Source: Bacillales bacterium (lineage in GTDB: Bacteria; Bacillota_I; Bacilli_A; RFN20; JAISJY01). Taken from it: a stretch of DNA of 16,796 nucleotides. The notes below the pieces were generated by a model that was not told the origin of the DNA, made no database searches, and saw only the letters and a program-made list of their open reading frames with translations. The stretch covers positions 1 to 16,796 of the forward strand of contig JAISJY010000022.1 of the NCBI GenBank assembly GCA_031261365.1, in the 5' to 3' direction. Below are positions 172 to 11,715 of this stretch, in pieces (the stretch's first letter is position 1; each line of letters starts with the position of its first letter). The translations under genes were made by a program, and so were the position numbers.

Positions 172-378
172 ATGATAGGAATAGAAATAACAACAGAATA
201 TATTACTTTAGGGCAATTTCTTAAATATGCTGAAATAGTAGAAAGTGGAACTGCCGCGAAGTTTTTTTTATTAAATAATTTTGTTTTAATAAATAAGGAA
301 AAAGAACAAAGAAGAGGTCGTAAATTATATAAAGGCTATCTCATAAATGTTAAGAATAAGGAATATATTATTAAATGA
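172..378 (+). CDS. yaaA: S4-domain RNA-binding protein (YaaA/RlbA-like)
   Basis: 68 aa. Motif TLGQFLK...RRGRKL resembles the small YaaA protein of Firmicutes. It lies directly upstream of recF-gyrB-gyrA, which is the canonical dnaA-dnaN-yaaA-recF-gyrB order. Its stop overlaps the recF start (ATGA). Confidence 0.85.
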   Translation: MIGIEITTEYITLGQFLKYAEIVESGTAAKFFLLNNFVLINKEKEQRRGRKLYKGYLINVKNKEYIIK

Positions 379-1415
379 TAATATCAAGCATTAAACTTAT
401 AAACTTTAGAAATTATATCAATGAAGAAATAAGTTTATTACCCGGTATCAATTATATATACGGTGAAAATGGACAAGGAAAATCAAATCTTTTAGAAGGT
501 ATTAATTATTTAAGTTGTTTACACTCTTTTAGAATTAGAGATGATGATAAATTAATAAGAGATGGAGAAGATAATTTTTTAATTGACTGTCAAATTCAAA
601 ACTCTATAAAAAACAATTTAAGAGTTGAATATAATGAAAACAAAAAAAGATTTTACTTAAATAATAAAATACTTTATCAAAATATCCTGCATAAAAACCC
701 TTTTAAAACGATGATTTTTTATCCTAACCAAGTTACTCTATGGTCAGGAATTGCAAGTGAAAGAAGAGGGTTCTTTGATGAAGAAATAAGTAAAATAAGT
801 CCAATGTATTCTTATCATTTAAAAACTTATAACAATTTATTAAAACAAAGAAACAATATTTTAAAAGATAACTTTAATGAAAATCTCTTTGAAGTTCTCT
901 CTTATCAAATGGGATTATCAAGTGATTACTTAATTAAAAAAAGAATAGAATATTTAAAAAAAATAAACTTCTATTTACCGACAATATTTCAAAGTTTATT
1001 AGATAAAAATAAAACAATAAAAATTGAATATAATTCTTTTCTAAGTAAAGATAAGTCAGAGGAACACTTCTTAATAAATAAAGAAAAAGAAATAATACTG
1101 AAACATACTTATGAAGGACCACATAATGATGACTTTATCTGTTTATATCAAAATAAAAACATTAAAGAATATGGTTCACAAGGCGAGAATAGATTAGCTG
1201 TTATAGCCTTAAAGTTAACAGCTATTAAAGTTTTAAAAGAAGAAACAAATGAAGAGCCTGTTATATTATTAGATGATGTTTTATCAGAGTTAGATGTTGA
1301 TAAAAAAGATAAATTAATTGATTACTTAAAAAAAGAAAATCAAATAATAATAACAAGCACGAACAAACCAGAAAATGAAAATGGTATACAAATTAAGAAA
1401 GGAAAGGTAATTTAA
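375..1415 (+). CDS. recF: DNA replication/repair protein RecF
   Basis: 346 aa. N-terminal IKLINFRNY and Walker A-like GENGQGKSNLLE. C-terminal ILLDDVLSELD signature of RecF/SMC-like ATPases. Synteny with gyrB. Confidence 0.9.
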   Translation: MIISSIKLINFRNYINEEISLLPGINYIYGENGQGKSNLLEGINYLSCLHSFRIRDDDKLIRDGEDNFLIDCQIQNSIKNNLRVEYNENKKRFYLNNKILYQNILHKNPFKTMIFYPNQVTLWSGIASERRGFFDEEISKISPMYSYHLKTYNNLLKQRNNILKDNFNENLFEVLSYQMGLSSDYLIKKRIEYLKKINFYLPTIFQSLLDKNKTIKIEYNSFLSKDKSEEHFLINKEKEIILKHTYEGPHNDDFICLYQNKNIKEYGSQGENRLAVIALKLTAIKVLKEETNEEPVILLDDVLSELDVDKKDKLIDYLKKENQIIITSTNKPENENGIQIKKGKVI

Positions 1416-3626
1416 ATGAGCGAAGAAGAAAAGAAAACTATTAACCCCTATGATGTTGAGCAAATTGAAGTCTTAGAAGGATTAGAACATGTTAGATTAA
1501 GACCAGGAATGTATATTGGTTCAACAGGAGAACAAGGATTACACCATATTGTTTGGGAAATCATTGATAATGGAGTTGATGAAGCTTTGGCAGGTTATTG
1601 TGATAAAATAGATGTTACAATTAGCAAAGATTCAGAAATTATTGTTTTTGATAATGGAAGAGGAATACCAACAGGCATACATCCTAAAACAGGAGTTTCA
1701 ACCTTACAAACAGTTTTTGCTGAAACAAATGCGGGAGGTAAGTTTGGTGGCAGTGGTTATAAAGCTTCAGGAGGATTACATGGAGTTGGTGCTTCAGCAA
1801 CTAATGCTCTTTCTAAATACTTTGAAGCTTGGGTCCATAGAGATGGAGAAATAACATATATTCGTTTTGAAAATGGTAAAAAAGAACCTGTTATTAAACC
1901 TCATGTTATTGGAAAAACAACTCAAACAGGAACAGTTGTTAAGTTTTATCCTGATGAAACTATATTTGTTGGCTTTAAACCAGAAATATTTGCTCATCCT
2001 CAAACAGCAGTTATTGAAGTAAAAGAGGAAGAAGGTAATAATCTCACTCCTTCATTTACTTTTAAATATGAATTAATTAATCAAAGAATTAAACAATTAG
2101 CCTTTTTAAATAAAGGTGTTACATTTACTTTTAAAGATGAAAGATTAAATGAAAATGGTGAAAAAGTTAATCCTGATGTAGTTTATAAATACGATGGAGG
2201 ATTAAGACAATATGTTGAATATTTAAATGAAGAAAAAGGTCTTAAAGGTAAAGATAGTAAAGGAAAAGAAATATATACTTCAGTCGTTTATATTAATGAA
2301 AAAAGTGAACATACAGTTGTTAATAATGGTAAAGAAGAGAAATACGATATAGCTTTAGAATTGGCAATGCAATATAATGATGGCTATACTACAAGTTTAT
2401 ATTCTTTTTGTAATAATATAAATACTCCAGATGGTGGTACACATGTTGATGGATTTAAAGCTGCCTTAGCTAGAATTATGAATAGTTTAAGAGTAGAAAA
2501 CGAAGAAATAGGTAAGAAAATTGATAAGATAGTAAATCAATATGTTCATGATGAAGACAAAGAAAAAGAAAAGAAATTAAAAGAAGAAAGTAAAAAAATA
2601 AAACAAGAAGATGTTTTAGAAGGTTTAGCAGCGGTTATTTCTATTAGACATCCTAATCCTGAATATCAAGGACAAACTAAAGGAAGATTAGGTAATCCAG
2701 AAGTTAGAACAGCGATTAGTCAAATAGTTCAAGCCCAATTAGAAAGATATATTTTAGAAAATCCTGATGAAGTTGCTATTATTGTAGAGAAAATTATTAA
2801 TGCTTTTAAAGGAAGATTAGCAGCTAAAGCGGCTCGAGAAACAACTAGAGTTGGAGCTTTAGATACTTTCTCTTCATTACCTGGCAAACTTGCTGACTGT
2901 TCAAGTAAAGAAGCAGATAGATGTGAAATATATATCGTGGAAGGAGATTCAGCTGGTGGTTCAGCTATTGATGGTAGAAATAGAAACTTCCAAGCAGTCT
3001 TGCCTTTAAGAGGTAAAATATTAAATGTTGAAAAAGCAAGTAAAGAACAAATATTTAATAATGCTGAAATTGCTAGTATGATTAAAGCTTTTGGAGTTGG
3101 TTATTTAAAACAAAAAGATAAAGATGAAGATGGCAATGAAATAGAAGTAGAAACTCAAGAATTAGATTTAAAGAACTTAAGATATAATAAAATTATTATT
3201 ATGACTGATGCTGATGTTGATGGTTCACATATTAGAATATTAATGTTAACATTCTTCTTTAGATATTTAAAAGATTTAATCACAACAGGGCATATTTTTA
3301 TTGCTCAACCACCTTTATATCAAGTTAAGTACTCTGAAAAAGACATAACATATGTCTATTCAGACCAACAATTAGATGATTTAAGAGCTTTAAAAGGTAA
3401 AGAAAAAGATTTACAAAGATACAAAGGATTAGGAGAAATGGATGCTATTCAACTTTGGGATACTACTATGGATCCAAAACAAAGAGTAATGAAAAAAGTA
3501 GAATTAACAGATGCTATTGAAGCAGATAAATGGTTTTCTTTTTTGATGGGAAATGATAGTTCCCACCGCAAAGACTTTATTAGTGAAGAAGCCAAGTTTG
3601 TAGATAGCAAAAATATAGATTTCTAA
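1416..3626 (+). CDS. gyrB: DNA gyrase subunit B
   Basis: 736 aa. GHKL ATPase motifs (HHIVWEIIDNGVDEA, GLHGVGAS). Toprim motifs (EGDSAGGSA, PLRGKILNVEKA). C-terminal QRYKGLGEM. ATG immediately follows the recF stop. Contains lineage-specific insertions. Confidence 0.97.
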   Translation: MSEEEKKTINPYDVEQIEVLEGLEHVRLRPGMYIGSTGEQGLHHIVWEIIDNGVDEALAGYCDKIDVTISKDSEIIVFDNGRGIPTGIHPKTGVSTLQTVFAETNAGGKFGGSGYKASGGLHGVGASATNALSKYFEAWVHRDGEITYIRFENGKKEPVIKPHVIGKTTQTGTVVKFYPDETIFVGFKPEIFAHPQTAVIEVKEEEGNNLTPSFTFKYELINQRIKQLAFLNKGVTFTFKDERLNENGEKVNPDVVYKYDGGLRQYVEYLNEEKGLKGKDSKGKEIYTSVVYINEKSEHTVVNNGKEEKYDIALELAMQYNDGYTTSLYSFCNNINTPDGGTHVDGFKAALARIMNSLRVENEEIGKKIDKIVNQYVHDEDKEKEKKLKEESKKIKQEDVLEGLAAVISIRHPNPEYQGQTKGRLGNPEVRTAISQIVQAQLERYILENPDEVAIIVEKIINAFKGRLAAKAARETTRVGALDTFSSLPGKLADCSSKEADRCEIYIVEGDSAGGSAIDGRNRNFQAVLPLRGKILNVEKASKEQIFNNAEIASMIKAFGVGYLKQKDKDEDGNEIEVETQELDLKNLRYNKIIIMTDADVDGSHIRILMLTFFFRYLKDLITTGHIFIAQPPLYQVKYSEKDITYVYSDQQLDDLRALKGKEKDLQRYKGLGEMDAIQLWDTTMDPKQRVMKKVELTDAIEADKWFSFLMGNDSSHRKDFISEEAKFVDSKNIDF

Positions 3627-3635
3627 GGAGGAACC

Positions 3636-6128
3636 ATGAGTACATATAAAAAAGATGAAGGATTTGAAAGAGACTTTGTGCATAATGAAGAAATTGTAGA
3701 TGTTAATGGAGAATTAAAAAAAGACTTTTTAGAATATGCCATGTCAGTAATTGTAGCGAGAGCAATTCCTGATGTTAGAGATGGCTTAAAACCTGTTCAT
3801 AGAAGAATAATATATTCAATGAATGAAGAAGGATTTACAGCAGGTAGAAGTTATAATAAATCAGCCAAAGTAGTAGGAGCAGTTATGGGTAATTATCATC
3901 CCCACGGAGATAGTTCTATTTATGAAGCAATGGTTAGATTAGCTCAACCATTTAACACTAGATATCAATTAGTAGATGGGCATGGTAATTTTGGTAATAT
4001 TGATGGTTATGGAGCAGCTGCTCAAAGATATACAGAAGCTAGATTAGCAAGATTATCAAGTGAATTAATTAAAGATATTGATAAAAGCACTGTTGATTTT
4101 ATAGATACATATGACGGTAAAGGGAAAGAACCTGTTGTTTTACCAGCTTATTTTCCTAATCTATTAGTTAATGGAACTACAGGTATCGCGGTTGGTATGG
4201 CAACCAATATGCCTCCTCATAATTTAGGCGAAATAATTGATTGTATTTTTGCAATTATGGAAAATCCAGACATAGAAGTAATTGACTTAATGAATAGTTA
4301 TATTAAAGGTCCAGACTTTCCAACAGGGGCAATTATCATGGGTAAATCTGGTATTAGAAAAGCTTATGAAACAGGTAGAGGTAGTTTTGTTATTAGAAGT
4401 AAATTACACACTGAAGATATGGGGAATGGTAAAACTAGAATAATTGTCAGTGAGATACCTTATCAAACTAATAAGAAAACTTTAATAGAAAAGATAGCGA
4501 ATTTAGTAAAAACAAAAGTTGTTGAAGGTATTGTGGAATTAAGAGATGAATCTAATTTAGAAGGTATTAGAATAATAATTGAATTAAAGAAAGATACTTT
4601 AGTTGATGTTTTAATTAATACTCTTTATAGATTAACACCTTTGCAACAGTCTTATTCTGTAAATAATTTAGTTTTAGATAAAAATGAACCAAAAACTTTA
4701 GGAATAATAGATATAATTAAGAAATATTTAGAACACCAAAATGATGTTTTAGTTAGAAAAACTCAATTCCAATTAGATGAAGCAAATAAGAGAATGCACA
4801 TCTTGAGAGGTTTTATTAAAGTCTTAGGTGATATTGATGAAGCGATTAAAATAATTAGAACAAGTAAAACTGTTGAAGAAGAGTTTGAAAGATTTACTAA
4901 GCGTTTTGGTTTAGACGATGTTCAAATTAAAGCGGTGATTAATATGAGATTACAAGCTTTATCTAATATGGAAATAACTAAACTTGAAGAAGAATACAAA
5001 GCTTTACAATTAAGTATTGATGAATTGATGTTAATTTTAAACTCTCAAGATAAGAGATGGGCAATAATTAGAGCAAGTCTAGAAGAAATAAAAGGAAAAT
5101 ATGCCGATGAAAGAAGAACAGAAATCTCTTTAGACGAGTTTGATGTTGAAGACGAAGACTTAATACCTCAAGAAGATATATTAATCACTTTAACTAATAA
5201 AGGTTATATTAAAAGATTAAGTTTAGATACTTATAAAACCCAAAACAGAGGTGGTAAAGGTATTAAAGGTATGAATACTTATGAAGATGATGTAGTAGAA
5301 AAGTTATTAGTTGCCAACACTCATACAGATATTTTATTCTTTATGACTAATGGTAAAGTATATAAAGTAAGAGGCTTTAGAATACCTGAAGGTTCTAGAA
5401 CTAGTAAAGGAATACCAGCTGTTGTTAACTTATTAAAAGCTCCAAAAGAAGAGAAAATACAGTCAATAATTTGTATTAAAGATTATGATGATGAAAACTT
5501 CCATTTATTATTTTCAACTAAAAAAGGTATTTTAAAAAGAACCTCATTAGATGAATATAAAAACATTCATAAAAACGGTAAAATTGCTATTAATTTAAGA
5601 GATGATGATGAACTAGTAGGTGTAGCCCAAACTAGTGGAAATGCTGAAGTATATTTAGCTAATTCTAATGGTAAATTAGCTAGATTATCAGAGGAAGATA
5701 TTAGAGCCGTTGGTAGAAACTCTATTGGTGTTAAAGGTATGAATGTTGATGAAGGGCAAGTTATTTCAATGTCAACAAGCAATGAAGGAGATAAGATATT
5801 AGTTATTTCTAATAATGGTATTGGTAAAATGACACCAACAATTGATTATAGAGCCACAAATAGAGGAGCAAAAGGTGTTATTACCATTAAGATAAATGAA
5901 AAAACAGGACCATTAGCTTTAATGAAAGCTGTTAAAGGTGATGAAGATATTTTGATTATTACCAACAAAGGTATAATTATTAGAACTCCTTTAACTCAAA
6001 TAAGAGAGGCTAGTAGAAATACTTCTGGAGTTAAAATAATAAGATTAGAAGAAGACCAACATATTGCTTCAATTGCCGTTGTTGAACATATTGAAGAAGA
6101 GATTATTGAAGAGGAAGTAGAGGATTAA
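3636..6128 (+). CDS. gyrA: DNA gyrase subunit A
   Basis: 830 aa. Strong RBS AAGGAGG 6 nt upstream. Catalytic-Tyr motif AAQRYTEARL. Quinolone resistance-determining-like region HPHGDSSIYEAMVRLAQ. Acidic C-terminal tail EEEIIEEEVED typical of GyrA. Confidence 0.97.
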   Translation: MSTYKKDEGFERDFVHNEEIVDVNGELKKDFLEYAMSVIVARAIPDVRDGLKPVHRRIIYSMNEEGFTAGRSYNKSAKVVGAVMGNYHPHGDSSIYEAMVRLAQPFNTRYQLVDGHGNFGNIDGYGAAAQRYTEARLARLSSELIKDIDKSTVDFIDTYDGKGKEPVVLPAYFPNLLVNGTTGIAVGMATNMPPHNLGEIIDCIFAIMENPDIEVIDLMNSYIKGPDFPTGAIIMGKSGIRKAYETGRGSFVIRSKLHTEDMGNGKTRIIVSEIPYQTNKKTLIEKIANLVKTKVVEGIVELRDESNLEGIRIIIELKKDTLVDVLINTLYRLTPLQQSYSVNNLVLDKNEPKTLGIIDIIKKYLEHQNDVLVRKTQFQLDEANKRMHILRGFIKVLGDIDEAIKIIRTSKTVEEEFERFTKRFGLDDVQIKAVINMRLQALSNMEITKLEEEYKALQLSIDELMLILNSQDKRWAIIRASLEEIKGKYADERRTEISLDEFDVEDEDLIPQEDILITLTNKGYIKRLSLDTYKTQNRGGKGIKGMNTYEDDVVEKLLVANTHTDILFFMTNGKVYKVRGFRIPEGSRTSKGIPAVVNLLKAPKEEKIQSIICIKDYDDENFHLLFSTKKGILKRTSLDEYKNIHKNGKIAINLRDDDELVGVAQTSGNAEVYLANSNGKLARLSEEDIRAVGRNSIGVKGMNVDEGQVISMSTSNEGDKILVISNNGIGKMTPTIDYRATNRGAKGVITIKINEKTGPLALMKAVKGDEDILIITNKGIIIRTPLTQIREASRNTSGVKIIRLEEDQHIASIAVVEHIEEEIIEEEVED

Positions 6129-7389: not shown

Positions 7390-8379
7390 CTATGAAGACA
7401 AAGATGGATTTTTACGAACGGCTTGAACAACATTAAATGACATAATATCATAAATATTTTTTGCAATTCTCTCAAGTACTGTTACGCAAACAGAGTTTCC
7501 TGCTTGTTTATATAATTGAGCAGTGGAAATATTAGGTAATATAAAATCTTTTGGAAAACCTTGCAAATTAAAACATTCCTTTGGTGTGAGTTTTCTAACT
7601 CCGAATTGCGTTTTTATTAAAGGTACATTGTGTCCGCCTGTTCCCATATTCGCTGTAAGTGTCGGTGACATATTACTTTTATTTTGTCTAACATATTGCC
7701 TACGCCATTGATATAAAGTATTTGTATCGTTAAATTTATTCATTTCTTTAATAATACGCGGAAATTTACTTTCAGGATAGTAAAATTTTTCGTCAACTTT
7801 ATTTTCAAAATCAATAACATCACTTAACTTCTTTGTTAATCGTATAGGTTGTGGAAAATAAAATCTATTTGCTTTTTCTTCATCAAGGAAACCGACAATA
7901 TATATTCTTTCGCGGTTTTGTGGGATATTGCCGTATTCACAAGCATTTAAAACCATATAGCGAGTATAATATCCAAGTTCCTTTAAGGTATTTAATATAA
8001 CTTCAAATGTTTTACCATTATCGTGAGATACAAGATTTTTTACATTTTCAAGAAGTATAACTTGTGGTTGTTTTGCCTTTAATATTCTTGCCACTTCAAA
8101 GAACAAAGTTCCACGAATATCGTCAAAACCCTTTTGATAACCAGCAATAGAAAATGCTTGACAAGGGAAACCACCAATAAGACAATCAAAATCTGGTAAT
8201 TCCGTTTCTGTAATTTTTTTTATATCTCCGCATAATACTTTAGTAGTAGGAAAATTCATTTGATAAGTTTGACAAGCGAAACTATCAATATCATTAGCCA
8301 AGATTATTTTGAACCCTACATTTTCAAAAGCAAGATCAATGCCACCTACTCCACTAAATAAACTTAAAATTTCATTCAT
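7390..8379 (-). CDS. DNA (cytosine-5)-methyltransferase
   Basis: Motif I LFSGVGG. Motif IV GGFPCQAFS (catalytic PCQ). Motif VI LLENVKNL. Motif IX/X region RKLTPKECFNLQGFP and GNSV. Start moved to the ATG at 8379, preceded by AAAGGAG. The ORF-track start at 8406 is a TTG with no SD. 329 aa, small monospecific Dcm/M.HaeIII-like architecture. Confidence 0.93.
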   Translation of the reverse strand: MNEILSLFSGVGGIDLAFENVGFKIILANDIDSFACQTYQMNFPTTKVLCGDIKKITETELPDFDCLIGGFPCQAFSIAGYQKGFDDIRGTLFFEVARILKAKQPQVILLENVKNLVSHDNGKTFEVILNTLKELGYYTRYMVLNACEYGNIPQNRERIYIVGFLDEEKANRFYFPQPIRLTKKLSDVIDFENKVDEKFYYPESKFPRIIKEMNKFNDTNTLYQWRRQYVRQNKSNMSPTLTANMGTGGHNVPLIKTQFGVRKLTPKECFNLQGFPKDFILPNISTAQLYKQAGNSVCVTVLERIAKNIYDIMSFNVVQAVRKNPSLSS

Positions 8380-8390
8380 ACTTTCTCCTT

Positions 8391-8406
8391 TTGCGGCATG
8401 CTGCAA
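8391..8406. promoter_or_regulatory. GC-rich near-palindrome TTGCGGCATGCTGCAA just upstream of the MTase RBS (possible operator)
   Basis: 16-bp inverted repeat with one imperfect position. About 60% GC in a ~28% GC genome. Lies ~12 nt upstream of the MTase start codon (8379), adjoining its SD. Confidence 0.3.
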
Positions 8407-8453
8407 TTTATATATTATTATTATAATCTATATATTCTTTTTTGTAAACATTT

Positions 8454-9116
8454 TTATTTGATTTTTTTTATAAAATTTTCCATCTCATTAAGCATTTCTT
8501 GCTCTTTATTTGGTATCTTTTCAATAATTGATTTGTGCATAAAATACTCTTGCCCGTTATTACTCTCTCTATCTAAATATTGAAAATACATAATATATGT
8601 TTTATTGCTTTCCAATTTAAAATTATTTATTCTAGCTTCACCATTTGTTGTGATGGTTATTGAACTTGCACTATTTTTGATAAATTGTAATTTTTCAATG
8701 TTCTCAATATCTAAATCAAGTATTATTTTATGATTATTGTTTTTGTCTAAAATATTTTCAACAGCAAACAAGCCGTTTTCTTTTATAGTTGTATATTTAT
8801 TAAATGGGACAGTTAATGGTATAACTTGTGAGTTTCTTGTTTCTCTAATATCTTTTAAATACATTGGACCGACAGTTGCTGGGCATAAGTTTGAGTAAGC
8901 CATAAAATCATTTGCACTTACAATAGTTATTAAACTTAAATATCCTAAATCATCTGTTGGCTGTTTGATTTCCCTTATAAGTGTAACTAAATTTTGTGTA
9001 TTTGAAACGATAAATGAATTATCATCCATGCTCATTTTTTTATAAATGTCGTTACTCAAAAGTGCCTTTTCAAAAAACGGTAATAGATAATCAGTATTTA
9101 AGTTTGTTTCTACCAT
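8454..9116 (-). CDS. hypothetical protein (candidate C-terminal part of a frameshifted restriction endonuclease/defence gene)
   Basis: 220-aa ORF directly upstream of and co-oriented with the C5-MTase. No recognisable motif. No convincing SD before the ATG at 9116. The reading frame stays open a further 37 codons upstream (to 9227) and overlaps the open frame of the preceding ORF. Confidence 0.5.
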   Translation of the reverse strand: MVETNLNTDYLLPFFEKALLSNDIYKKMSMDDNSFIVSNTQNLVTLIREIKQPTDDLGYLSLITIVSANDFMAYSNLCPATVGPMYLKDIRETRNSQVIPLTVPFNKYTTIKENGLFAVENILDKNNNHKIILDLDIENIEKLQFIKNSASSITITTNGEARINNFKLESNKTYIMYFQYLDRESNNGQEYFMHKSIIEKIPNKEQEMLNEMENFIKKIK

Positions 9117-9184
9117 AACTAAAAATTTATTCTCATATCCTTGATTTCTTAAACTAACTAAATATTGTTGTTCCTTAAATGATT

Positions 9185-9571
9185 TTACCTCAATTTGTGG
9201 TGCTTCAGCAACTGCTTGCCATTTTCGTTATTGTCTTTATCTTTATTAAAACGAACAAATGGTATTGCTTCGTCCAACATTTTAATACCTAAAACATCTG
9301 GTGCAATGCCTGTTTTTTTGGGGTCATATTGGTAATAGTCACTTATAACCTTTAATTCAGCTCCAACATTCTTAGCAATTTTTGGAAGTAAAAGTTTATT
9401 AAAAATAATGCTCTCGGGAATAATGTTTATCCACCTGTCAAATATACCACCAATATAATCGCTTTTGCCACTTAATCCGCCATACATTTTGCCACGCTGT
9501 GACATTGAACAAACAAAATAAATATAAGGTTCTACATCCTGTTTTTTAATTTCAATTTTATCTTTTGCCAT
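9185..9571 (-). CDS. hypothetical protein (candidate N-terminal part of the same disrupted gene)
   Basis: 128 aa from the ATG at 9571. AAAGGAG lies 11 nt upstream, and the track's GTG start at 9583 overlaps that SD. No recognisable family. First gene of a co-oriented 3-gene unit ending in the MTase. Confidence 0.5.
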   Translation of the reverse strand: MAKDKIEIKKQDVEPYIYFVCSMSQRGKMYGGLSGKSDYIGGIFDRWINIIPESIIFNKLLLPKIAKNVGAELKVISDYYQYDPKKTGIAPDVLGIKMLDEAIPFVRFNKDKDNNENGKQLLKHHKLR

Positions 9572-9604
9572 AATAAAAATCACTCCTTTATATAAAATAT
9601 ACTA

Positions 9605-9628
9605 CCATTATAAAAAAAAGGGAACTAA
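9605..9628. repeat. right copy of ~24-nt direct repeat (attataaaaaaaaagggaactaa)
   Basis: Includes the 3' half of the flotillin terminator hairpin, the U-tract, and the TATAAT used as -10 for the 128-aa ORF. Confidence 0.5.
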
Positions 9629-9637
9629 ATAATTCCC
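9612..9637 (-). terminator. intrinsic terminator downstream of the flotillin gene
   Basis: Minus strand reads GGGAAUUAUUUAGUUCCC followed by UUUUUUUU. This is 15 nt after the flotillin stop. Confidence 0.6.
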
Positions 9638-9651
9638 TTCTTAAACATTAA

Positions 9652-11067
9652 CTATTTTTTTGTTTTCTTTTCTTCTTTAACTTCCACTTCAACAACAGGT
9701 TCAATAGGTTTTTCTTCTTTACCTACTAAGAAAGGGGGAAGATTTAAACCAGCAGATTTATAAAGGTCTTGCAAAGGTGGTAATGATTTTAATAAACTTT
9801 GAGCAAAATTAGCAGTAGATGAACTACCATCTTTATTACCAGAATCCCAAACAGTAACTTTATCAATTTTTAAGTTCTTAATTGCTTCAACTTGGATTTC
9901 AACAAGTTTCTCTAGCTTATCAGTGATTAATAATTGAACTGCACTTTGAGGGTCTCCTGCACTTTTAATTAATCTAGCAAAACCTTCAGCTTGTTTAGAT
10001 AGTATTTCAAAACTACCTTTTGCTTCAGCTTCTAATTTAGCATAAATAGCATCAGCATGACCTTTTGCTTCTCTTCTAGCCGTTTCAGCAACAGCATCTG
10101 CTTCAATAATTCTTTTTTGTTTTTCAATTTCTGCAGAAACAATATCATTAGCTTCAAGAGTTGCTTTTTCTCTATCAAATCTTGCTCTTTCAGCTATCTC
10201 TTCAGCTCTGTATGAGTCTTCTAAAACTTTAGCAGTTGCAATTTTTTCAGCAGTTTCTGCTTTTCTTTTAGCTTCAGCTTGTTCTTCTCTTCTAGCGGCA
10301 TCTGACTGAGCAACTTTTCCTAAAGAAACATTTTCTCCACTAATAGCAACTTGGTTAGCTTCTGCCACTTTAATTCTTTGGTCCATATAAGCATTAGCTT
10401 CACCAATAGCACCATCTCTATTTTTTTCAGCAACTGATTTTTTAGCTTCGTTTATAGCTTTAGCTGCAGCTTCTTTTCCCAAAGCATCAATATAACCAGA
10501 TTCATCTTTAATATCTACAACATTCACATTTATTAATCTTAAACCGATTTTCTTTAATTCTAATTCCACATTTCTAGCAACAGCTTCTAAGAATTTATCT
10601 CTGTCAGTGTTAATTTCTTCAATTTCCATAGTTGCAATAACTAATCTTAATTGACCAAAAATAATATCTTTAGCTAGAGTTTCAATTTCATTCATTCTTA
10701 AACCTAGTAATCTTTCAGCCGCGTTTTGCATAACTCCATTTTCAGTTGAAATACCAACAGTAAAAACTGAAGGAACATCAATACGGATGTTTTGTTTAGA
10801 TAAAGCACTCTTTAAGTCAACAGATATTGACATTGGAGTTAAATCCATAAACTGATAAGCTTGAATAAAAGGTATAATGAACTTAACACCTCCATGAACA
10901 CAGTCTGCACTTCTTTTTGAACCATCTTGGTTAGCGGTAACTCTACCATAAACTACTAATATTTTATCTGAAGGACATTTTTTAGTACGAGATACAATAA
11001 ATCCTAAAACAGATAAAACTAAAACAACAACGATTACAACAATTCCAATAATTGGCCAAGGTCCCAT
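9652..11067 (-). CDS. floT: flotillin-like SPFH/band-7 domain protein (FloT/YuaG-like)
   Basis: 471 aa. N-terminal TM helix. SPFH domain. Long Ala/Glu/Lys-rich coiled coil with EA-repeat character (AEAKRKAETAEKIA...). Sits immediately downstream of an NfeD-like gene, as in B. subtilis yuaF-floT. Confidence 0.88.
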   Translation of the reverse strand: MGPWPIIGIVVIVVVLVLSVLGFIVSRTKKCPSDKILVVYGRVTANQDGSKRSADCVHGGVKFIIPFIQAYQFMDLTPMSISVDLKSALSKQNIRIDVPSVFTVGISTENGVMQNAAERLLGLRMNEIETLAKDIIFGQLRLVIATMEIEEINTDRDKFLEAVARNVELELKKIGLRLINVNVVDIKDESGYIDALGKEAAAKAINEAKKSVAEKNRDGAIGEANAYMDQRIKVAEANQVAISGENVSLGKVAQSDAARREEQAEAKRKAETAEKIATAKVLEDSYRAEEIAERARFDREKATLEANDIVSAEIEKQKRIIEADAVAETARREAKGHADAIYAKLEAEAKGSFEILSKQAEGFARLIKSAGDPQSAVQLLITDKLEKLVEIQVEAIKNLKIDKVTVWDSGNKDGSSSTANFAQSLLKSLPPLQDLYKSAGLNLPPFLVGKEEKPIEPVVEVEVKEEKKTKK

Positions 11068-11082
11068 TTTTCTTTTTCCTTT

Positions 11083-11676
11083 CTATACTTTTTTAACTTC
11101 TAATAAAGCAGATTCTCTTAATCCGACAATTTCTACAAATGAATTAGGTAATAAGTCTTCTCCTTCACTTGTTACAGCATCAACTTCTAAAAATCTATCA
11201 TTATATTGAACAATAACTTTTCCTCTTCCTTCTTCTCTAGCTGGTATCTTAATATACACTTGAGCTTTTTTACCAATAGCATATTTATAATCTACATTAC
11301 CAACTTGCTCTAATTTGTTTAATTGTTTAAAGGCTAAAGCAAGAAGGAAACCAGCTAAAGCACCAGCTGCTATTCCTAAAAGTAAACTAAATACCCAAAA
11401 AATACCTGTCTCATCAAAAGCAAAAGCTGTCCAACCTCCGATAGCAAAGAAGGCTAAAACTGTTCTCAAGGTTACTAACCTTAAACCTGCAACTAAGCCA
11501 AAGCCACCATCATTAATATCATCAGTTCCATCAACTTCACCAGCTGTAACATCATCAAAATCTGAGTTGTCTCCCATACCCACAAACATCAAGATTAAGA
11601 AGACCACAAGTAAGACACTTGCAGCGGTTGCAAATACGAAGACTACTTGTTGAAAATTGCTTAAGTTTTCCCACAT
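11083..11676 (-). CDS. NfeD-like membrane protein (YuaF-like)
   Basis: 197 aa from the ATG at 11676. AAGGAGG lies 8 nt upstream, and the track's GTG at 11682 was rejected. Hydrophobic N-terminal half. C-terminal beta-rich OB-like domain (KVIVQYNDRFLEVDAV...VEIVGL) typical of NfeD partners of flotillins. Confidence 0.75.
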   Translation of the reverse strand: MWENLSNFQQVVFVFATAASVLLVVFLILMFVGMGDNSDFDDVTAGEVDGTDDINDGGFGLVAGLRLVTLRTVLAFFAIGGWTAFAFDETGIFWVFSLLLGIAAGALAGFLLALAFKQLNKLEQVGNVDYKYAIGKKAQVYIKIPAREEGRGKVIVQYNDRFLEVDAVTSEGEDLLPNSFVEIVGLRESALLEVKKV

Positions 11677-11715
11677 AATCACTACCTCCTTTTTCCTTTA
11701 TTATTATATAATAAA

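What the first reader, a model, noticed from the sequence alone, without database searches (positions are those of the whole stretch)
9117..9256. The 128-aa and 220-aa ORFs look like one gene split by a 1-nt frameshift in an A-run
The frame of the 220-aa ORF stays open for 37 codons upstream of its first ATG, with last in-frame stops at 9228-9230 and above. In random ~28% GC sequence a stop-free run this long has probability ~0.04. The extension translates into plausible protein text (RKWQAVAEAPQIEVKSFKEQQYLVSLRNQGYENKFLV-M...). The ATG at 9116 lacks a Shine-Dalgarno site, whereas every other gene here has AGGAG-type sites. The upstream ORF's frame and this frame are both open across 9188-9227. 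Restoring one A in the run at 9222-9225 (minus-strand cgAAAAtgg) would fuse them into a ~350-aa protein (...NKDKDNNEKWQAVAEAP...). Loss of a restriction gene by frameshift while the MTase is retained is a common fate. A homopolymer sequencing error is also possible, as is programmed frameshifting.
Basis: seen in the sequence. Interest (0 to 1): 0.6.

Follow-up and report, generated by a model that had tools for sequence, protein, structure and literature searches.

The report
Frameshift-broken restriction endonuclease gene beside methylase
The 128-aa and 220-aa ORFs are two pieces of one roughly 360-aa nuclease gene of a restriction-modification pair, broken between its catalytic motifs while the neighbouring DNA methylase gene stays intact, which is a common and ordinary fate for such genes.

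Summary
The minus-strand ORFs 9571..9185 (128 aa) and 9116..8454 (220 aa) are fragments of one gene.

- **One gene elsewhere:** a fused translation (372 aa) aligns end to end with about 240 listed homologues, all single proteins of 357-403 aa. It also matches single open frames in every locus that holds the whole gene, out of 72 genome loci.
- **Position of the break:** it lies between the invariant D92 (APD) and E128-x-K130 (QIEVK) of a PD-(D/E)XK nuclease domain. The invariant Trp codon just downstream pins the frame change to 9222-9227.
- **Consequence:** no start codon lets the EVK motif be translated, so the split form cannot be an active nuclease.
- **Neighbour:** the C5 cytosine methylase gene (8379..7390) is intact and has its own promoter-like site and ribosome-binding site.
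- **Nuance:** the P104-W118 loop is 7 residues in 89 of 89 aligned homologues. The window carries a net 17-nt excess there, so the lesion may be a 17-nt insertion rather than loss of one A.
- **Error or recoding:** an independent Logan assembly shows the same A4 run, and no slippery heptamer is present. I favour a real inactivating mutation (about 0.8) over a sequencing error (about 0.13) or programmed frameshifting (about 0.03).

The nuclease family has no curated model and no solved relative by sequence.

The parts
9185..9571 (-). ORF A (128 aa): N-terminal fragment of the nuclease gene. Residues 1 to about 116 are authentic and the last 12 (NGKQLLKHHKLR) are out-of-frame read-through ending at TAA 9187-9185.
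   Evidence: Translation. It aligns with the N-terminus of 357-403-aa homologues, including invariant D45-R46-W47 and A90-P91-D92.
9583..9589 (-). Shine-Dalgarno-like AAAGGAG upstream of the ATG at 9571, the true start of the ancestral gene.
   Evidence: Sequence and the upstream -20..-1 listing.
9296..9298 (-). GAT codon for D92, the 'PD' aspartate of the PD-(D/E)XK motif (GIAPDVLG). It is encoded in ORF A.
   Evidence: Invariant in 90 of 90 aligned sequences.
9222..9259 (-). Loop between P104 and W118. It is 38 nt here against 21 nt (7 codons) in every homologue, a net excess of 17 nt, so this is where the reading frame is lost.
   Evidence: The loop is 7 residues in 89 of 89 homologues and 13 in the repaired window protein. 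D..E spacing is 29 in 89 of 89 and 35 here.
9222..9227 (-). Interval to which the frame change is pinned (CGAAAA, containing the A4 run 9222-9225). It lies between the last stop of the downstream frame (TAA 9230-9228) and the invariant Trp codon TGG 9221-9219.
   Evidence: Translations. W118 is invariant. The sequence is identical in an independent Logan assembly.
9183..9191 (-). GAG GTA AAA, the codons for E128-V-K130 of the (D/E)XK catalytic motif. They are readable only in ORF B's frame, upstream of its first start codon, and they overlap ORF A's stop codon.
   Evidence: E128 and K130 are invariant in 90 of 90 sequences. The ORF B frame has no ATG, GTG or TTG between 9227 and 9116.
8454..9227 (-). 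C-terminal part of the nuclease gene in the second frame. The annotated ORF B is 9116..8454 (220 aa) and the 37-codon open extension is 9227..9117.
   Evidence: P0002 is the annotated 220-aa 'hypothetical protein LBM99_00750'.
8420..8448 (-). Promoter-like site TTTACA-17-TATAAT (11 of 12 matches) between the nuclease stop and the methylase start.
   Evidence: This is a consensus match only; function was not tested.
7390..8379 (-). Intact C5 cytosine DNA methyltransferase gene (329 aa from ATG 8379, preceded by AAAGGAG). The ORF finder's TTG at 8406 is probably not the real start.
   Evidence: Pfam DNA_methylase 7.7e-97, covering profile positions 3-323 of 324. TIGR00675 5.4e-109. M.HhaI 224 bits. 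55-57% identical, target-recognition domain included, to the methylases next to intact homologues.
9615..9642 (-). Terminator-like hairpin plus T-run after the upstream Band_7 gene. It marks the upstream boundary of the nuclease-methylase unit.

Best explanation
The two ORFs are the remains of one gene of about 360 codons for a two-domain protein. Its N-terminal part is a PD-(D/E)XK nuclease domain and its C-terminal part is a beta-rich domain that I infer binds DNA. Together with the C5 cytosine methyltransferase gene immediately downstream, it formed a Type II-like restriction-modification pair.

In this genome the nuclease gene has lost its reading frame inside the hairpin loop that separates the catalytic Asp (D92) from the catalytic Glu-x-Lys (E128, K130). 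The likely cause is a 17-nt insertion, or an 18-nt insertion followed by loss of one A in the A-run at 9222-9225. Translation from the only ribosome-binding site ends 12 out-of-frame codons later at 9185. The E-x-K codons cannot be translated from any start codon, so no active nuclease can be made.

The methylase has all its conserved motifs and its own promoter-like site and ribosome-binding site, so it probably persists as a solitary methylase.

**Shown:** the single-gene ancestry, the position of the break, the fold and motif, the methylase linkage and the intact methylase. **Inferred:** restriction activity of the intact family, the kind of mutation, and that the break is real rather than a read error.
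For: - **Collinear alignment:** the fused 372-aa translation aligns at 56-62% identity over 97-99% of its length with 119 single proteins of 357-386 aa. It aligns at 35-44% identity with more distant relatives of 363-403 aa.
- **Genome loci:** 72 loci were found. Each one holding the whole gene has a single open frame, apart from L069, a TGA=Trp genome.
- **Catalytic residues:** D92, E128, K130 and W118 are invariant in 90 sequences.
- **Methylase linkage:** a C5 methylase abuts the intact gene in four independent contigs. A methylase homologue lies within about 2 kb in most of the 72 loci.
- **No bypass:** no start codon exists between 9227 and 9116 in ORF B's frame, and ORF B has no Shine-Dalgarno site.
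- **Independent assembly:** the Logan assembly of run SRR14710919 has identical sequence at the junction and the same two ORFs.
- **Homopolymers elsewhere:** genes in the window contain 420 homopolymer runs of 4 or more bases, 137 of 5 or more and 17 of 7 or more. Only this one coincides with a frame break.
- **No recoding signal:** there is no X_XXY_YYZ heptamer in the shift interval.
Against: - Read-level data could not be inspected. The two assemblies probably share the same reads, so a systematic read error at the A-run is not excluded.
- No close relative above 62% identity exists in any collection searched, so the ancestral state of the loop cannot be read directly.
- Apart from the frameshift the gene looks well preserved. 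There is no second stop or frameshift and all 44 family-invariant residues are kept. The break is therefore very recent, or an error.
- Nuclease and restriction activity have never been shown for any member of this family.
- The window's methylase is closest (74%) to methylases that sit next to a Bsp6I-like nuclease elsewhere. The original pairing of this nuclease and this methylase is therefore not certain.
Confidence: 0.8

Rival explanations
1. The gene is intact in the organism, and the missing base is a sequencing or consensus error in the A-run at 9222-9225. The real product would be a 372-aa nuclease with a 6-residue longer hairpin.
For: - Adding one A restores the frame and the invariant Trp.
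- No other lesion is present, and all invariant residues are kept.
- AlphaFold models the extra residues as an extension of a beta-hairpin (strands 106-110 and 116-120) with high confidence, so an in-frame insertion might be tolerated.
Against: - An independent assembly (Logan, SRR14710919) gives the identical A4.
- A4 is a short run. The 137 runs of 5 or more bases and 17 runs of 7 or more bases in the window's genes show no frame breaks, so homopolymer accuracy in this contig is high.
- The break coincides with the only length change seen in a loop that is invariant in 89 of 89 homologues. That is better explained by a real indel than by a coincidental read error next to a unique insertion.
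Confidence: 0.13
2. The frameshift is programmed. A -1 ribosomal frameshift, or transcriptional slippage, at the A-run yields a low level of full-length nuclease and so limits expression of a toxic enzyme.
For: - A -1 shift is the direction needed.
- The sequence C GAA AAT allows partial re-pairing of the A-site tRNA (A AAT to AAA).
- Limiting nuclease expression is a known need of restriction-modification systems (established knowledge).
Against: - No canonical X_XXY_YYZ heptamer lies in the 9188-9227 interval.
- A4 is far shorter than the runs known to support transcriptional slippage (established knowledge).
- None of the roughly 240 listed homologues, and none of the 72 loci, uses a frameshift.
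- Fragments in the cluster library that seemed to break nearby are artefacts: TGA=Trp genomes called with table 11, a scaffold gap of N's, and a contig end.
Confidence: 0.03
3. The two ORFs are separate functional genes, either a naturally split two-subunit enzyme or a stand-alone C-terminal DNA-binding protein.
For: Both ORFs are annotated and called as separate genes in the deposited record and in the Logan assembly.
Against: - ORF B lacks a ribosome-binding site.
- The E-x-K motif falls in neither product.
- The break lies inside a beta-hairpin of the catalytic core.
- No homologue is split.
Confidence: 0.02

Closest known systems
Type II restriction endonucleases of the PD-(D/E)XK superfamily (for example PvuII, SwaI, NhoI, EcoRV) and small PD-(D/E)XK nucleases (D212, I-Ssp6803I, archaeal Hjc)
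   Same: - It has an invariant D ... E-x-K motif.
- The gene sits next to a C5 DNA methyltransferase gene, as in orthodox Type II systems.
   Different: - There is no detectable sequence similarity to any solved structure.
- There is no match to any Pfam, NCBIfam or PADLOC model.
- An N-terminal helical region and a C-terminal beta-rich domain of about 170 aa have no structural match.
- The D-to-E spacing is fixed at 29 residues.
- Activity and recognition sequence are unknown.
Solitary (orphan) DNA methyltransferases that arise when the restriction gene of a restriction-modification system decays
   Same: The methylase is intact, has its own expression signals, and lies next to a nuclease gene inactivated by a frameshift. 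This is the well-known decay route (established knowledge).
   Different: Only one lesion is present here, so the decay is at its earliest stage. The lesion coincides with a 17-nt length excess rather than a simple homopolymer slip.
Bsp6I-type (GCNGC) restriction-modification systems (Pfam PF09504 RE_Bsp6I with a C5 methylase)
   Same: The window's methylase is 74% identical (69% in the target-recognition region) to a methylase that lies directly after a Bsp6I-like nuclease gene in L067. Members of the 360-aa family lie in the same gene islands.
   Different: The window has no Bsp6I-like gene, and the 360-aa protein does not match PF09504. A shared recognition sequence is only a lead.

Membership tests
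PD-(D/E)XK nuclease superfamily | Conserved catalytic motif: an Asp (often PD) followed at a distance by (D/E)-x-K | tested here: met
   A90-P91-D92 and E128-V-K130 are invariant in 90 aligned sequences spanning 35-62% identity.
PD-(D/E)XK nuclease superfamily | Alpha/beta core fold with the mixed beta-sheet that carries the motif | tested here: met
   [not shown]
PD-(D/E)XK nuclease superfamily | Metal-dependent phosphodiester cleavage | not testable with these tools
   This needs biochemistry on an intact homologue.
Type II restriction-modification system (orthodox, separate R and M genes) | The nuclease gene is adjacent to a DNA methyltransferase gene, and the linkage is conserved across genomes | tested here: met
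   In the window the two genes are 74 nt apart on the same strand. Four independent contigs have an abutting convergent C5 methylase. A methylase homologue lies within about 2 kb in most of the 72 loci.
Type II restriction-modification system (orthodox, separate R and M genes) | Sequence-specific cleavage that is blocked by the cognate methylation | not testable with these tools
   No member of the family is characterised and the recognition sequence is unknown.
Any named or curated restriction-endonuclease family (Pfam RE_* families, NCBIfam, PADLOC REase models, solved REases by sequence) | Significant match to the family's profile | tested here: not met
   There were no hits at E<=0.1 in Pfam, NCBIfam or PADLOC and none at E<=10 against PDB sequences with a family profile. 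I therefore do not file it under any named enzyme family.
Programmed -1 ribosomal frameshift site | Slippery heptamer X_XXY_YYZ in the zero frame at the shift site | tested here: not met
   There is none in 9188-9235; only the partial C_GAA_AAT is present.
Programmed -1 ribosomal frameshift site | The frameshift is conserved among homologues | tested here: not met
   All homologues are single in-frame ORFs. The apparent fragments are artefacts.
Programmed -1 ribosomal frameshift site | Downstream stimulatory RNA structure or upstream internal Shine-Dalgarno sequence | not tested
   I did not fold the region, because the first two features failed.
Phase-variable (contingency) homopolymer tract | A long mononucleotide tract (typically 8 or more bases) in the coding region | tested here: not met
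   The tract is A4.
C5 cytosine DNA methyltransferase (the neighbouring gene) | Full set of conserved motifs (FxGxG, PCQ, ENV, QxRxR, GN) across the Pfam DNA_methylase profile | tested here: met
   PF00145 at 7.7e-97 covers profile positions 3-323 of 324. The alignment to M.HhaI shows FSGVGG, GFPCQAFS, LENVKN, QNRERIY and GNSV.

The most novel reading that the evidence does not exclude
The broken gene belongs to an undescribed family of restriction endonucleases. The family gave 179 cluster representatives among 1.84 billion proteins, has no curated model and has no solved relative by sequence. It combines a PD-(D/E)XK core with a new C-terminal recognition domain. In candidate-phyla-radiation bacteria the intact gene is paired with a methylase fused to a complete LexA-like repressor and self-cleaving peptidase module, which would tie control of a restriction-modification system to DNA damage. 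For the window itself, the most novel reading is that the break is a programmed -1 frameshift that throttles nuclease expression.
Probability: 0.3. Interest if true: 0.55.

Novelty: new member of a known kind. Interest (0 to 1): 0.25.

Why it matters
- **For annotation:** the two 'hypothetical protein' entries should be merged into one pseudogene (disrupted restriction endonuclease), and the methylase should be treated as functionally solitary. This genome should then carry the methylation mark without restricting incoming DNA.
- **More broadly:** the analysis defines a compact protein family that has no name. It has a nuclease fold, an invariant catalytic triad and conserved linkage to C5 methylases, which makes it a reasonable candidate for a new restriction specificity.
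- **A side observation:** an unusual LexA-methylase fusion occurs in the related loci.
- **The frameshift itself:** it is an ordinary event.

Tried and rejected
- **Family and structure searches on the fused protein:** Pfam, NCBIfam and PADLOC scans gave nothing meaningful. A PDB sequence search with the family profile gave nothing.
- **Recurrent natural split in other genomes:** I suspected this because several cluster representatives start at 'MPQIEVK' or 'MVSLR', or end at 'NKW'. I rejected it. These come from TGA=Trp genomes called with table 11 (L069), a scaffold gap of N's (L082) and a contig end (L080).
- **Local duplication as the source of the 17-nt excess:** no tandem or direct repeat was found.
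- **Sequencing run in the literature:** a search for the run accession found nothing. A search for LexA-methylase fusions found nothing relevant.
- **Plasmid and phage collections:** tblastn of the fused protein found no match.
- **Recognition sequence from M.HhaI similarity:** the target-recognition region aligns poorly, so no inference was made.

Full report
**Observation.** On the minus strand, ORF A runs from ATG 9571 to TAA 9187-9185 (128 aa) and is preceded by AAAGGAG. ORF B runs from ATG 9116 to 8454 (220 aa). ORF B's frame is open for 37 codons upstream of its ATG, back to TAA 9230-9228, and reads RKWQAVAEAPQIEVKSF.... The A4 run is at 9222-9225, and both frames are open over 9188-9227. 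At 28.4% GC the chance of 37 stop-free codons is about 0.04. The 13 other long ORFs in the window have only 0-10 open codons upstream, and ORF B has no Shine-Dalgarno-like sequence. The fused product is 372 aa rather than about 350, and the claim that every other gene has an AGGAG site is overstated: about 9 of 13 do.

**One gene or two.** I inserted one A in the run and searched with the 372-aa product.
- The search gave 432 hits. Apart from the window's own 220-aa ORF (P0002, 'MAG: hypothetical protein LBM99_00750 [Bacillales bacterium]', contig length 16796, which is the whole window), the 119 other listed hits are single proteins of 357-386 aa. They cover 97-99% of the query at 55-60% identity.
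- The alignment is collinear across the junction.
- A second search, seeded with distant members, gave 120 more proteins, all 363-403 aa.
- A scan of one genome per species found 72 loci in candidate-phyla-radiation bacteria, archaea, Clostridia, Bacilli and others. Every locus that holds the whole gene has a single open frame of 356-458 codons. The one exception is L069, whose two 'stops' are TGA codons at invariant Trp positions, which points to a TGA=Trp genome.
- Short proteins in the 50%-identity cluster library that seemed to start or end near the same place are artefacts: wrong genetic code (P0173, which matches L069), a scaffold gap of N's (P0153, L082), and a contig end (P0196, L080).

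So homologues are never two genes, and none starts at the Met equivalent to ORF B's start.

**Where and what the break is.** Across 90 aligned sequences the invariant residues include D45-R46-W47, A90-P91-D92, W118, P125-Q126, E128 and K130. W118 (TGG 9221-9219) is read in ORF B's frame, and the last stop in that frame is 9230-9228. The frame change must therefore lie in CGAAAA, 9227-9222, which contains the A-run.

There is one more fact. The loop from P104 to W118 is exactly 7 residues, and the D92-E128 spacing exactly 29, in 89 of 89 homologues. The repaired window protein has 13 and 35. At the DNA level the loop is 38 nt against 21 nt, a net excess of 17 nt. The simplest single event is therefore a 17-nt insertion. 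The alternative is an earlier in-frame 18-nt insertion followed by loss of one A. No repeat that would explain the insert was found. The window protein also has three smaller unique in-frame indels: +2 at residues 68-69, +1 at 283 and -1 near 271. Its lineage is therefore indel-prone or somewhat relaxed, and the two scenarios cannot be separated without a close relative. None exists above 62% identity.

**What the gene encodes.**
- No Pfam, NCBIfam or PADLOC model matches, and no PDB sequence matches a family profile.
- With the 90-sequence alignment, AlphaFold gives pLDDT 91.8 and pTM 0.88.
- Together with the invariant D ... E-x-K, this places the N-terminal half in the PD-(D/E)XK superfamily.
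- The C-terminal beta-rich domain of about 170 aa has no match. I infer that it is the DNA-recognition part.
- The family is small: 179 cluster representatives at E<=1e-3 among 1.84 billion. It is absent from the plasmid and phage collections.

**Context.** Immediately downstream, with a 74-nt gap, lies an intact C5 cytosine methyltransferase gene (8379..7390).
- Its scores are Pfam 7.7e-97 over the whole profile, TIGR00675 5.4e-109 and M.HhaI 224 bits.
- It has its own AAAGGAG and a TTTACA-17-TATAAT promoter-like site at 8448-8420.
- In four independent contigs the intact homologue abuts a convergent C5 methylase. That methylase domain is 55-57% identical to the window's, including the target-recognition region.
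- A methylase homologue lies within about 2 kb in most of the 72 loci.

This is the signature of a Type II-like restriction-modification pair. The window's methylase is, however, closest (74% overall, 69% in the recognition region) to a methylase that follows a Bsp6I-like nuclease gene in L067. There the 360-aa family gene sits in the same island with a second methylase. The original pairing is therefore not certain. GCNGC is the Bsp6I site by my own knowledge of that enzyme, and it is only a lead for the specificity here.

**Consequence of the break.** ORF A keeps D92 but runs into 12 wrong-frame codons and a stop that overlaps the E-V-K codons (9191-9183). ORF B's frame has no ATG, GTG or TTG between 9227 and 9116, so E128 and K130 are in neither product. 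The break lies in a beta-hairpin of the catalytic core (strands 106-110 and 116-120). The split form cannot be an active nuclease.

**Real mutation, error or recoding.**
- The Logan assembly of run SRR14710919 yields the same 128-aa and 220-aa pair and identical DNA across the junction. An assembler artefact is therefore unlikely, although the reads are probably the same.
- The window's genes hold 420 homopolymer runs of 4 or more bases, 137 of 5 or more and 17 of 7 or more. None of the others breaks a frame, and gyrA, gyrB and an 824-aa ABC protein are all intact. Homopolymer accuracy is therefore high, and an error at a mere A4 is improbable.
- The coincidence with a unique indel also favours a real lesion.
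- For programmed frameshifting a -1 shift is needed. No X_XXY_YYZ heptamer lies in the interval, A4 is too short for transcriptional slippage or phase variation, and no homologue is frameshifted.
- My estimates are: real inactivating mutation about 0.8, error about 0.13, recoding about 0.03, and genuinely separate genes about 0.02.
- The absence of any second lesion, and the retention of all invariant residues, mean the event is recent if it is real.

**Comparison and novelty.** This works like the familiar decay of a restriction gene that leaves a solitary methylase, which is an ordinary outcome. The protein is a new member of a known kind: a PD-(D/E)XK, Type II-like nuclease that belongs to no named family. 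Interest in the finding itself is low. The family and the methylase fusions seen in its relatives are moderately interesting leads.

**Seen in passing.**
- In 26 candidate-phyla-radiation-type loci the partner methylase carries a complete N-terminal LexA DNA-binding domain plus S24 peptidase module, with cleavage-site-like AG, GDSM and TLKRL motifs.
- L002 and L003 also have a 73-aa HTH gene just upstream of the nuclease gene, like a controller protein.
- The window is chromosomal and carries the recF-gyrB-gyrA cluster typical of replication-origin regions (S4-domain protein, recF, gyrB, gyrA).

Noticed in passing
L002:5084-6664 (-). The same architecture occurs in L003-L011, L013-L025, L027, L028 and L076.: In 26 candidate-phyla-radiation-type loci, the C5 methylase paired with the intact nuclease homologue is fused to a complete LexA-like module. 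In L002 this is LexA_DNA_bind at residues 1-64, Peptidase_S24 at 79-193 and the methylase at 216-522. AG, GDSM and TLKRL motifs resemble the LexA cleavage site and its Ser/Lys dyad. A quick literature search found no description of such a fusion.
   Followed up: partly
L069:3001-4113 (MAG labelled Phoenicibacter sp.): The nuclease homologue has two in-frame TGA codons, both at invariant Trp positions. That genome therefore probably reads TGA as Trp. Truncated cluster representatives such as P0173, and probably P0172 and P0175, look like products of calling such genomes with the standard table.
   Followed up: yes
L067:2731-6459 and L049:2998-6862; also L082:2593-2916: In several Clostridia and Melainabacteria-type loci the 360-aa family gene lies in an island with a Bsp6I-like nuclease gene (PF09504) and two C5 methylases. 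The window's methylase is 74% identical to the methylase that follows the Bsp6I-like gene in L067, which hints at a GCNGC-type specificity.
   Followed up: partly
L002:3778-3999 and L003:583-804: A 73-aa HTH_3/HTH_31 gene ends 2 nt before the start of the intact nuclease gene, like a controller (C) protein of restriction-modification systems. The window has no such gene.
   Followed up: no
window 8377-8406: The ORF finder starts the methylase at TTG 8406. However, ATG 8379, preceded by AAAGGAG and followed by MNEILSLFSGVGG (motif I), is the likely start. A GC-rich hairpin-like element (8391-8406, plus strand) overlaps this leader.
   Followed up: partly
window 172-6128: The window carries an S4-domain gene, recF, gyrB and gyrA in a row. 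This is the cluster typical of replication-origin regions, so the broken restriction-modification unit is chromosomal and lies only about 1.3 kb from gyrA, with two small genes (GNAT acetyltransferase and FMN reductase) in between.
   Followed up: no
window 9652-11682: A 199-aa protein without any Pfam match lies directly upstream of a 471-aa SPFH/Band_7 protein on the same strand. The same pair is present in the Logan contig L001. It may be an NfeD-like partner of a flotillin.
   Followed up: no
L082:1202-1563: A run of N's (a scaffold gap) inside the nuclease homologue changes the frame. It produced a 258-aa 'protein' (P0153) that starts at MPQIEVK. This is an example of how scaffold gaps mimic split genes.
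   Followed up: yes
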